Source: a virus
Reading direction: 5' to 3' (one strand)
Virus genome (UHGV): UHGV-0045954
DNA: 26,836 nucleotides
The notes beneath the pieces are model-generated. The model was not told where the DNA came from. It worked only from the letters and a program-made list of their open reading frames with translations, and made no database searches. Each line of letters starts with the position of its first letter. Positions within the stretch are counted from its first letter, which is position 1. Below are positions 11,365-11,996 of this stretch, piece by piece. A program made the position numbers and the translations under genes.

Positions 11365-11624
11365 GGTTCTTTCCACCATCTGAAAAATAATTCTTTAAAA
11401 TACCAGACATGTAACACAGAAAAAACACAAAACCATACCTTAAATAGAAACCTGATCATCAAGCAGATATGCATGGATAAACTACAAGACGAGATATAAA
11501 CCACCCTGCATTTAAATAAACAATAAACAACATCAGAAAAATAATTCTGCTCTATGGTTTATATTCAAAAATATCATTTATACTTTTCAGAACATCACCA
11601 GCAAGGCATAAACAAGGAAGCTAA

Positions 11625-11960
11625 ATGAAGTGGATTGTAATTGATACAGTTATCCAGCCATCATGCGGAATATCTTTTTCAGTCATATGGAGTAAAGTAA
11701 AATTAATAATCTGGTATCAATCGGATGCTTTCTTACCTCCTGAAAGTATATTTACACTGACTCACACAGGTATCATGCTCAATAACAAAGTGCTACCTGT
11801 AACCATTTACAACGTAGTACCATTCAATAAAACATTCTGGAATTTAATCAAAAACAGCCAGGAATGCCCTACAAATACAGATAACGTATTGAATGAATGC
11901 TTTAATAACCGTTGCATTCTGCAAATATGTCCTTATGGACTAAAACAACAAAGTCCATAA
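11625..11960 (+). CDS. hypothetical Cys-containing protein, AT-rich moron
   Basis: 111-aa ORF with AAGGAAG RBS; markedly AT-rich relative to flanks; convergent with late genes; no family recognised. Confidence 0.4.
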
Positions 11961-11996
11961 GGAGTTTACTCACATCTGACAAAATCAATATAAACA

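What the first reader, a model, noticed from the sequence alone, without database searches (positions are those of the whole stretch)
11380..11990. AT-rich orphan ORF convergent with late genes in the Q-S cargo region
ORF 11625..11960 (111 aa, six Cys, AAGGAAG RBS) is preceded by ~220 bp of very AT-rich sequence and reads against the late-operon direction, ending at the copy-A hairpin, which could act bidirectionally. Morons in this slot are often virulence or defence cargo. No family is recognisable by eye, so it is either a novel cargo gene or a spurious ORF in AT-rich DNA.
Basis: inference. Interest (0 to 1): 0.45.

Follow-up and report, generated by a model that had tools for sequence, protein, structure and literature searches.

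The report
Known prophage gene iraL (RssB anti-adaptor)
The "orphan" ORF is iraL, an already characterised prophage gene whose small protein blocks the adaptor RssB so that the stress sigma factor RpoS escapes degradation; it is real and conserved, but not new.

Summary
The ORF at 11625..11960 (+) exists as described: 111 aa, AAGGAAG Shine-Dalgarno, 30% GC upstream, convergent with the late genes. It has five Cys, not six. It is not an orphan. It matches IraL of uropathogenic E. coli CFT073 at 109 of 111 residues (98.8% nt). IraL is an experimentally characterised RssB anti-adaptor that stabilises RpoS in log phase (Hryckowian 2014, PMC4045071). The published 5'-RACE start maps to window 11592. 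CFT073 carries iraL in the same Q-to-holin slot of a lambdoid prophage. About 27% of complete E. coli genomes (1446 of 5426) carry this DNA, annotated "anti-adapter protein IraM". It passes NCBIfam NF007393 (162 bits, cutoff 121) and matches the IraM crystal structure 8TWD. dN/dS against paralogues is 0.09-0.25, so a spurious ORF is excluded. The "copy-A hairpin" is the terminator of a convergent STnc100 sRNA (Rfam RF02076). One nuance: this allele has a C-to-T change in the probable -35 hexamer (TTTACA to TTTATA), absent from six other sampled alleles. The paper flags a -35 point mutation of unknown effect in some strains, so expression of this copy is uncertain. Novelty: already known. Interest: low.

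The parts
11380..11591 (+). AT-rich (about 30% GC) upstream and regulatory region of iraL. It travels with the gene.
   Evidence: GC 0.30. The region 11380-11624 is 96.3% identical to the CFT073 iraL upstream region. It is alignable in the paralogous loci L004 and L005.
11558..11563 (+). Probable -35 hexamer. It reads TTTATA here and TTTACA in CFT073 and five other sampled alleles (C to T at 11562).
   Evidence: TTACA is conserved in paralogues. The paper reports a -35 point mutation in some iraL copies with unknown effect (PMC4045071). The hexamer assignment is my inference, because the figure is not held.
11579..11584 (+). Probable -10 hexamer TATACT, 15 bp after the -35 and 7 nt before the TSS.
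   Evidence: Read directly from the sequence. Conserved as TATACT or TATGAT in paralogues. The position fits the 5'-RACE TSS.
11592..11624 (+). iraL 5' UTR (33 nt), from the TSS at 11592. It contains the SD AAGGAAG at 11614-11620.
   Evidence: The published 5'-RACE mRNA start ACATCACCAGCAAGGCATAAACAAGGAA matches exactly at 11592. The paper's complementing fragment ends at +33, which is the base before the ATG.
11625..11960 (+). iraL coding sequence, 111 aa: RssB anti-adaptor of the IraM/IraL family.
   Evidence: 109/111 aa and 98.8% nt identical to CFT073 IraL. NF007393 scores 162 bits against a cutoff of 121. PDB 8twd_A gives E=9e-32. dN/dS is 0.09-0.25. RefSeq protein WP_001333560.1.
11930..11963 (+). 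Perfect 12-bp hairpin containing the stop codon. Its loop and 3' arm encode the IraL-specific tail QQSP. It is a possible weak terminator or 3' stabiliser.
   Evidence: -17.5 kcal/mol. It is followed by AGTTTACT, which has too few T for the terminator scan. It is not conserved in paralogues.
11986..12174 (-). Convergent neighbour: STnc100-family sRNA ('copy A'). Its intrinsic terminator is the GC hairpin 11995-12016.
   Evidence: Rfam RF02076, 132.5 bits against a gathering score of 47, full-length model. Terminator-like on the - strand only. The same convergent arrangement, 23-36 nt from the stop, occurs in CFT073, L004 and L005.

Best explanation
The ORF is iraL, a horizontally acquired moron of a lambdoid prophage. 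It is transcribed from its own sigma-70-type promoter (TSS at 11592), against the direction of the late operon, so it can be expressed in the lysogen. The 111-aa product has a PmrD-like beta-barrel plus helix, followed by a Cys-rich tail. It binds the response-regulator-like adaptor RssB. This prevents RssB from delivering sigma-S (RpoS) to the ClpXP protease, so RpoS is stabilised and the general stress regulon is primed even in growing cells.

Shown by others for the 98%-identical CFT073 protein: RssB binding, a longer sigma-S half-life, the TSS, and complementation by the -100..+33 fragment.

Shown here: identity to that gene, the same promoter and context, purifying selection, and wide distribution.

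Inferred: that this particular allele is expressed and active. It carries V25 and I98, a C-to-T change in the -35, and a one-base-better SD. Also inferred: that four late-strand terminators between Q and iraL shield it from convergent transcription until Q is made.
For: Identity to CFT073 IraL:
- BLASTP gives 109/111 identical residues.
- The CDS is 98.8% and the -100..+33 region 97.0% identical in nucleotides.
- The 5'-RACE sequence from PMC4045071 maps exactly to 11592.
- CFT073 has the same layout: Q, tRNA, DUF3927, STnc100, iraL (convergent), DUF1737 remnant, holin, YdfR, lysozyme.

Family membership:
- NCBIfam NF007393 'anti-adapter protein IraM' scores 162 bits against a cutoff of 121.
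- phmmer against IraM in PDB 8TWD gives E=9e-32.
- Even a low-confidence AF2 model matches 8twd_A best (TMt 0.82, rmsd 1.9 A), followed by PmrD structures.
- Of the 14 IraM residues that contact RssB (PMC10844676), 10 are identical in IraL. All five that touch the RssB N-terminal domain are identical. The other four are conservative changes.

Conservation:
- 1446 of 5426 complete E. coli genomes carry the region, annotated as an anti-adaptor.
- Four GenBank phage records carry it at 100% identity.
- dN/dS is 0.09-0.25 against CFT073 and four paralogues.
- The ORF is intact in all seven full-length alleles compared.
Against: No experiment exists on this exact allele. Its -35 reads TTTATA instead of TTTACA, which was found in 6 of 6 other sampled alleles. 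The authors state that expression of copies with a -35 point mutation is unknown. The promoter has an unusual 15-bp spacer and was not picked up by the consensus scan. Pfam-A as scanned here gives no family. The AF2 model is poor (pLDDT 53) and says nothing about the C-terminal tail. A related copy in L004 is frameshifted, so the gene can decay in some lineages.
Confidence: 0.93

Rival explanations
1. It is iraL, but in this prophage it is a weakly expressed or silent copy. The C-to-T change at 11562 degrades the -35 hexamer, so the gene contributes little to RpoS control unless another factor activates it.
For: T at 11562 is unique to the window allele among seven alleles sampled. TTACA is conserved even in 59-76% paralogues. 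The paper says expression of copies with a -35 point mutation is unknown. The window's exact 60-bp core promoter occurs in 284 genomes, a minority.
Against: TTTATA still matches 4 of 6 of the consensus, and the -10 TATACT is intact. The allele has spread to at least 272 genomes with an intact ORF. It carries a slightly stronger SD (AAGGAAG against AAGGAAA). No expression data exist either way.
Confidence: 0.3
2. It is IraM proper, as the RefSeq product name says: the PhoP/PhoQ-induced anti-adaptor that responds to Mg2+ starvation.
For: The RefSeq and NCBIfam name is 'anti-adapter protein IraM'. One PhoP-box-like site with a single mismatch lies at 11513-11529 on the - strand, at -79..-63. It occurs in about 4% of local dinucleotide shuffles.
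Against: The protein is only 63-64% identical to K-12 IraM but 98% identical to IraL. The upstream region does not align convincingly with the K-12 iraM upstream region. The genomic context differs, a Q-S slot here against the e14-adjacent locus in K-12. The paper found no overlap between iraL and iraM matches, and found log-phase expression without stress. PhoP-box-like hits over the whole window are not above chance (75 found, 62 expected).
Confidence: 0.04
3. It is a PmrD-like connector that targets a response regulator other than RssB, for example by protecting phospho-PmrA.
For: The fold resembles PmrD: 4hn7, 2jso and 2rqx are ranks 2-4 in Foldseek. Precomputed Pfam labels list PF11183 PmrD for the whole family. 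The JBC paper notes the IraM-PmrD similarity.
Against: Sequence identity to PmrD is only 14-19%. The 98%-identical CFT073 protein binds RssB and changes sigma-S stability. The RssB-contact residues are conserved.
Confidence: 0.02
4. It is a spurious ORF that arose by chance in AT-rich DNA.
For: Low GC with no codon-position GC bias (0.36, 0.34 and 0.32 at positions 1-3). No Pfam hit.
Against: dN/dS is 0.09-0.25 with saturated dS. Thirty-three columns are invariant across 53-99% homologues. There is a solved structure of the homologue. Genetics and biochemistry have been published on the 98%-identical protein.
Confidence: 0.01

Closest known systems
IraL of E. coli CFT073 (formerly ycgW; Hryckowian et al. 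2014, mBio, PMC4045071)
   Same: 109/111 aa and 98.8% nt in the CDS. Same promoter and TSS region (97%). Same 3' flank including the STnc100 sRNA (99.4%). Same Q-S slot of a lambdoid prophage and same convergent orientation.
   Different: I25V and T98I in the protein. C to T in the probable -35 (11562), G to A at -1 (11591), and A to G and C to T between the SD and the ATG (11620, 11622). The host prophage has HK97-type rather than lambda-type head genes.
IraM (YcgW/ElbA) of E. coli K-12; structure 8TWD in complex with RssB (PMC10844676)
   Same: Homologous over the full length at 63-64% aa. Same fold. The RssB-contact residues are largely conserved, and the four C-terminal Cys are invariant.
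   Different: A different locus, next to e14. The upstream region is unrelated. According to the literature, IraM is induced by Mg2+ starvation (the PhoP/PhoQ dependence is from my own knowledge, not from the papers read). IraM contacts both RssB domains, whereas IraL bound only the N-terminal domain in two-hybrid assays. IraL has a 4-residue C-terminal extension, QQSP.
RssC of Salmonella (IraM/IraL-like; cited in PMC4045071)
   Same: Stated in the paper to belong to the same iraL-iraM-rssC family.
   Different: Only 47-49% identity according to the paper. It was not retrieved by my searches and was not examined here.
PmrD (PF11183; PDB 4HN7, 2JSO, 2RQX)
   Same: Same small beta-barrel plus helix fold. 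Both are 'connector' proteins that bind a response-regulator receiver domain.
   Different: 14-19% identity. The target is PmrA rather than RssB. PmrD lacks the Cys-rich C-terminal tail.
IraP and IraD (the other RssB anti-adaptors)
   Same: Same function: they inhibit RssB and stabilise sigma-S.
   Different: No sequence similarity, different inducing signals and different binding modes, according to the paper.
Lambdoid morons in or near the Q-S region (stx; bor/iss)
   Same: An autonomous cargo gene inserted among late genes. A 76% IraL paralogue sits directly after stx2AB in some Stx prophages. iss/bor at 8918..9211 (+) in this window is also counter-oriented.
   Different: stx is co-oriented with, and dependent on, late transcription. 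iraL is convergent and has its own promoter.

Membership tests
IraL (iraL as defined by Hryckowian 2014) | [quoted passage not shown] | tested here: met
   332 of 336 nt, 98.8%, no gaps. 109/111 aa.
IraL (iraL as defined by Hryckowian 2014) | iraL promoter and upstream regulatory region at least 96% identical to CFT073, with the mapped TSS sequence present | tested here: met
   The -100..+33 region is 97.0% identical. The TSS 28-mer matches exactly at 11592. One of the four differences hits the probable -35.
IraL (iraL as defined by Hryckowian 2014) | Genomic context as in CFT073 (the 'potB island', which is a lambdoid prophage), not the K-12 iraM locus | tested here: met
   Same gene order from Q to lysozyme in CFT073 L002 and in the window. 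The K-12 locus is different.
IraL (iraL as defined by Hryckowian 2014) | Binds RssB (N-terminal domain) and increases sigma-S level and half-life in log phase | not testable with these tools
   Shown for the CFT073 and S. sonnei proteins in PMC4045071. Here there is only the conservation of contact residues: 10 of 14 identical, and 5 of 5 in the NTD cluster.
IraM/IraL/RssC anti-adaptor family (NCBIfam NF007393) | Score above the curated cutoff of NF007393 over the full length | tested here: met
   162 bits against a cutoff of 121; residues 1-110 match profile positions 1-113 of 114.
IraM/IraL/RssC anti-adaptor family (NCBIfam NF007393) | IraM fold: antiparallel beta-barrel with a beta-hairpin and one alpha-helix (8TWD) | tested here: met
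   Sequence match to 8twd_A with E=9e-32. The AF2 model has strands 2-66 and a helix at 69-76, and its best Foldseek hit is 8twd_A (TMt 0.82). Caveat: the model's pLDDT is only 53.
IraM/IraL/RssC anti-adaptor family (NCBIfam NF007393) | Conserved family residues, including the C-terminal C-x10-C-x4-C-x4-C / ICPYG motif | tested here: met
   C81, C92, C97, C102, I101, P103 and G105 are invariant in 12 homologues of 53-99% identity.
IraM proper (K-12 type) | At least 95% identity to K-12 iraM, and the K-12-type upstream region | tested here: not met
   63% aa identity to K-12 IraM. The upstream regions are not convincingly alignable.
IraM proper (K-12 type) | Induction by Mg2+ starvation | not testable with these tools
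   Only a single PhoP-box-like site with one mismatch, in reverse orientation, at -79..-63. P is about 0.04 locally, and hits are not enriched window-wide.
PmrD (PF11183) | Significant match to the Pfam PmrD model | tested here: not met
   No Pfam hit at E<=10 for IraL or for K-12 IraM in the Pfam copy available. Precomputed tables do list PF11183. There is structural similarity only, at 14-19% identity.

The most novel reading that the evidence does not exclude
The most novel reading not excluded is that iraL and the convergent STnc100 sRNA form a conserved two-gene regulatory module of lambdoid and Stx prophages. Their 3' ends lie 23-36 nt apart in four different prophage backgrounds, including directly after stx2AB. 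Read-through of either transcript would then create antisense control of the other. In this reading the family-wide invariant C-terminal Cys4 motif is a metal or redox switch, and the -35-mutant allele in this window depends on an activator (there is one PhoP-like box at -79..-63). The prophage would thereby couple host RpoS stability to an environmental signal. None of this is shown. STnc100 has no better-than-random complementarity to the iraL 5' region, and the PhoP-like box is only marginally unexpected.
Probability: 0.1. Interest if true: 0.4.

Novelty: already known. Interest (0 to 1): 0.1.

Why it matters
The finding itself has little consequence, because the gene, its product, its target and its transcription start were published in 2014 and the gene is annotated in RefSeq.

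The practical points are these:
- iraL occupies the Q-S moron slot of lambdoid prophages in about a quarter of complete E. coli genomes, so prophage content directly sets how RpoS is regulated in a strain.
- The RefSeq name 'IraM' hides the IraL/IraM distinction. PHROGs lists the family (phrog_4407) as 'unknown function', so phage-annotation pipelines will keep reporting it as hypothetical.
- This window carries the allele with a -35 change, whose expression the original authors left open. That allele is present in roughly 280 complete genomes.

Tried and rejected
- **Pfam-A scans.** Scans of IraL and K-12 IraM at E<=1 and E<=10 found no family. This conflicts with the precomputed PF11183 labels. 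I took it as a difference between Pfam versions and did not pursue it.
- **Consensus promoter scan.** It did not find the RACE-supported promoter, because that promoter's spacer is 15 bp. It proposed TAAACA-17-AATAAT at 11517-11545 instead, which no data support.
- **PhoP-box search (KGTTTA-N5-KGTTTA, up to 3 mismatches).** It found 75 hits against 62 expected in the window, so there is no enrichment. The K-12 iraM upstream region gave no clean positive control. The single one-mismatch site upstream of iraL occurs in about 4% of local shuffles, so I keep it only as a weak lead.
- **STnc100 pairing with the iraL 5' UTR.** Duplex energies were no better than shuffled targets for either sRNA copy (the first attempt, timed out). 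Rejected.
- **AlphaFold2 with a 12-sequence alignment.** Mean pLDDT was 53 and the tail (residues 80-111) was below 50, so it cannot say whether the four Cys cluster together.
- **Stop-codon hairpin as a family feature.** It is not conserved in L005, L011 or K-12.
- **Window against M217 at a fixed offset.** The comparison failed because of indels away from the anchor. I therefore checked annotation-derived coordinates against ORF listing where I used them.
- **Locating the JJ1886 iraL2 copy.** I could not find its coordinates, so I could not confirm that its -35 mutation is the same base.

Full report
**Observation.**
AAGGAAG lies at 11614-11620, 4 nt before the ATG. The 245 bp upstream are 29.8% GC and the ORF is 33.9% GC, against 48.6% for the window. 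All flanking phage genes are on the - strand: antiterminator Q at 13213..14034, a P21-type holin, a DUF1327/YdfR protein, lysozyme, and further on the terminase, portal and capsid genes. Two details were wrong. The protein has five Cys, not six. The ORF also does not end at the GC hairpin. Its stop codon lies in the 3' arm of its own perfect 12-bp hairpin (11930-11963), and the GC hairpin (11995-12016) begins 35 nt later.

**Identity.**
The same 611 bp occur at 90-100% identity in 1446 of 5426 complete E. coli genomes, almost always once per genome and on the chromosome. RefSeq labels the gene 'anti-adapter protein IraM'. The protein passes NCBIfam NF007393 (162 bits, cutoff 121). It matches the crystallised IraM(1-78) of PDB 8TWD with E=9e-32.

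The literature separates two paralogues. IraM of K-12 is one. IraL of uropathogenic CFT073 is 58.9% identical to it, lies on the 'potB island', and was shown to bind RssB and to raise sigma-S level and half-life in log phase (PMC4045071). I fetched the CFT073 region. Its IraL is 109/111 identical to the window protein. The CDS is 98.8% identical, the -100..+33 promoter fragment 97.0%, and the 160 bp after the stop 99.4%. K-12 IraM is only 63% identical. The published 5'-RACE sequence matches exactly at window 11592, giving a 33-nt leader. This fits the '+33' end of the fragment that complemented the CFT073 deletion. The window ORF is therefore iraL.

**Context.**
The CFT073 'potB island' is a lambdoid prophage. 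iraL sits there in the same place and orientation: Q, tRNA genes, DUF3927, an STnc100 sRNA, iraL (convergent), a DUF1737 remnant, holin, YdfR, lysozyme. In ST131 and other strains the gene upstream of iraL is an intact SASA-family esterase (nanS-p). The window's 67-aa DUF1737 ORF (11176..11379) is the truncated 5' end of that gene.

Paralogues use the same slot. A 76% paralogue lies directly after a divergent stx2AB in Stx prophages. A 59% paralogue lies between a methylase and DUF1737, downstream of a different Q. A 92.6% copy in another prophage is frameshifted. A 70% paralogue is outside any recognisable prophage. Four GenBank phage records carry the window's DNA at 100% identity and call it an anti-adaptor.

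**Is it a real gene?**
Pairwise Nei-Gojobori dN/dS between the window gene and CFT073, three paralogues and K-12 iraM is 0.09-0.25, with dS near or beyond saturation. Seven full-length alleles from different lineages all keep the frame. Thirty-three alignment columns are invariant across homologues of 53-99% identity, including C81, C92, C97, C102 and the ICPYG motif. A shallow-alignment AlphaFold model is poor (pLDDT 53). It still has the expected strands and single helix, and it finds 8twd_A first (TMt 0.82) and PmrD structures next, in line with the published IraM-PmrD similarity.

**Mechanism.**
By homology with a 98%-identical characterised protein, the product binds RssB and blocks delivery of sigma-S to ClpXP. 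The IraM-RssB structure lists 14 contact residues. In IraL, all five of the cluster that touches the RssB N-terminal domain are identical. Four of the nine that touch the C-terminal domain or linker are changed (T13S, L75I, H63N, I64V). This fits the two-hybrid result that IraL binds only the N-terminal domain, although that link is my inference.

Transcription starts at 11592. The best hexamers are TATACT (11579-11584) and, 15 bp upstream, TTTATA (11558-11563). These assignments are also inference. They are supported by conservation of TTACA and of TATACT or TATGAT in paralogues.

On the late strand there are four terminator-like hairpins between Q and iraL: 13130-13115, 12478-12459, 12265-12246 and 12016-11995. 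In a lysogen without Q these should keep convergent transcription away from iraL. After induction, Q-modified polymerase would read antisense through it. This too is inference.

**Allele nuance.**
The window differs from CFT073, and from five other sampled alleles, by T instead of C at 11562, which changes TTTACA to TTTATA. It also has G instead of A at 11620, which lengthens the SD. The exact 60-bp core promoter of the window occurs in 284 genomes and the CFT073 version in 255. Other variants, such as the ST131 type TTTACAA, make up the rest. [quoted passage not shown] The window very probably carries that allele, but I could not retrieve JJ1886 to confirm this.

**The 'copy-A hairpin'.**
Rfam identifies two full-length STnc100 sRNAs (RF02076) on the - strand, at 11986..12174 and 12450..12643. 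The GC hairpin is the terminator of the first. Its T-tract is on the - strand only, so the sequence gives no support for bidirectional termination. STnc100 lies convergent to iraL, 23-36 nt from its stop, in the window, CFT073, L004 and L005. I found no special complementarity between STnc100 and the iraL leader.

**Verdict.**
This is a correct observation of a real, counter-oriented moron, but it is a known and named gene. Novelty: already known. Interest: low.

Noticed in passing
window 11986..12174 (-) and 12450..12643 (-): Two full-length STnc100 sRNA genes (Rfam RF02076, 132 and 138 bits). Each ends in a GC hairpin plus T-tract on the late strand.
   Followed up: partly
window 11960-11986; L002 23440-23466; L004 6455-6479; L005 3541-3578: iraL (or its paralogue) and STnc100 are convergent, with only 23-36 nt between the stop codon and the sRNA 3' end, in four different prophage backgrounds. 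This looks like a conserved two-gene module. No trans complementarity to the iraL leader was found.
   Followed up: partly
L005 3206-5105, L006, L007 (GCA_039832115.1, GCA_039832205.1): A 76%-identical IraL paralogue (P0004) lies immediately downstream of, and convergent to, a divergent stx2AB operon (about 89% nt to stx2a/c) in Stx prophages. The best-matching Stx2a/2c phage records in the phage collection match only from past the paralogue onward.
   Followed up: partly
window protein residues 81-105 (nt 11865-11939): Four Cys (C81, C92, C97, C102; spacing C-x10-C-x4-C-x4-C) and the ICPYG motif are invariant across the IraM/IraL family at 53-99% identity. The IraM structure paper describes this tail as less conserved and flexible, and removed it for crystallisation. 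It may be a metal or redox site.
   Followed up: partly
window 11562 and 11620: The window allele alone, of seven sampled, has T in the probable -35 (TTTACA to TTTATA) and G extending the SD (AAGGAAA to AAGGAAG). The exact core promoter occurs in 284 complete genomes.
   Followed up: yes
window 11513..11529 (-): A PhoP-box-like direct repeat, TGTTTA-TTGTT-TATTTA, with one mismatch, at -79..-63 of the iraL TSS. It is conserved in CFT073. It occurs in about 4% of local dinucleotide shuffles, so it is a weak lead.
   Followed up: partly
window 11374-11394 and 11528-11548: A 21-nt direct repeat, CA(C/A)CATC(T/A)GAAAAATAATTCT, at 90% identity. One copy lies at the start of the DUF1737 ORF and the other at -64..-44 of the iraL TSS.
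   Followed up: no
window 11930-11963: A perfect 12-bp hairpin contains the iraL stop codon. The IraL-specific C-terminal extension QQSP is encoded by its loop and 3' arm. The hairpin is not conserved in IraM or other paralogues.
   Followed up: partly
window 12031..12156 (+): The RefSeq 'hypothetical protein, partial' CDS annotated at the corresponding position in M217, CFT073 and other genomes lies entirely inside the STnc100 sRNA gene. It is probably a mis-annotation.
   Followed up: no
window 11625..11960 (protein): PHROGs lists this family as phrog_4407, 'unknown function' (E=8e-73, full length), although it is the IraL/IraM anti-adaptor family. The Pfam-A copy available gives no hit for IraL or K-12 IraM, whereas precomputed tables list PF11183 (PmrD).
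   Followed up: partly
window 11176..11379 (-): The 67-aa DUF1737 ORF is the truncated 5' end of the nanS-p-type SASA esterase. That esterase is intact next to iraL in ST131, FORC_069, MINF_7C and the Stx prophages.
   Followed up: partly
window 13130-13115, 12478-12459, 12265-12246, 12016-11995 (all - strand): Four terminator-like hairpins with T-tracts on the late strand between Q and iraL. The first, just downstream of Q, looks like tR'.
   Followed up: no
window 12994..13069 (-): A tRNA with a CAT anticodon. ARAGORN and a phage record call it tRNA-Met, while RefSeq calls it tRNA-Ile. CFT073 and the Stx-type prophages have two tRNA-Arg genes beside it, which this window lacks.
   Followed up: no
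window 8918..9211 (+): An iss/bor lipoprotein gene, a second moron transcribed against the late genes, lies between the HNH endonuclease and Rz.
   Followed up: no
window 16068..16243 (-) and 22231..22282 (+): Sok antisense RNA (next to hokD) and DicF sRNA (next to dicB) were detected by Rfam, as is usual for Qin-like prophages.
   Followed up: no
L004 6121-6455: A 92.6%-identical iraL-like gene is frameshifted (pseudogene) in an Stx-phage-like prophage without stx, in strain FHI_NMBU_10. This shows occasional decay of the gene.
   Followed up: no
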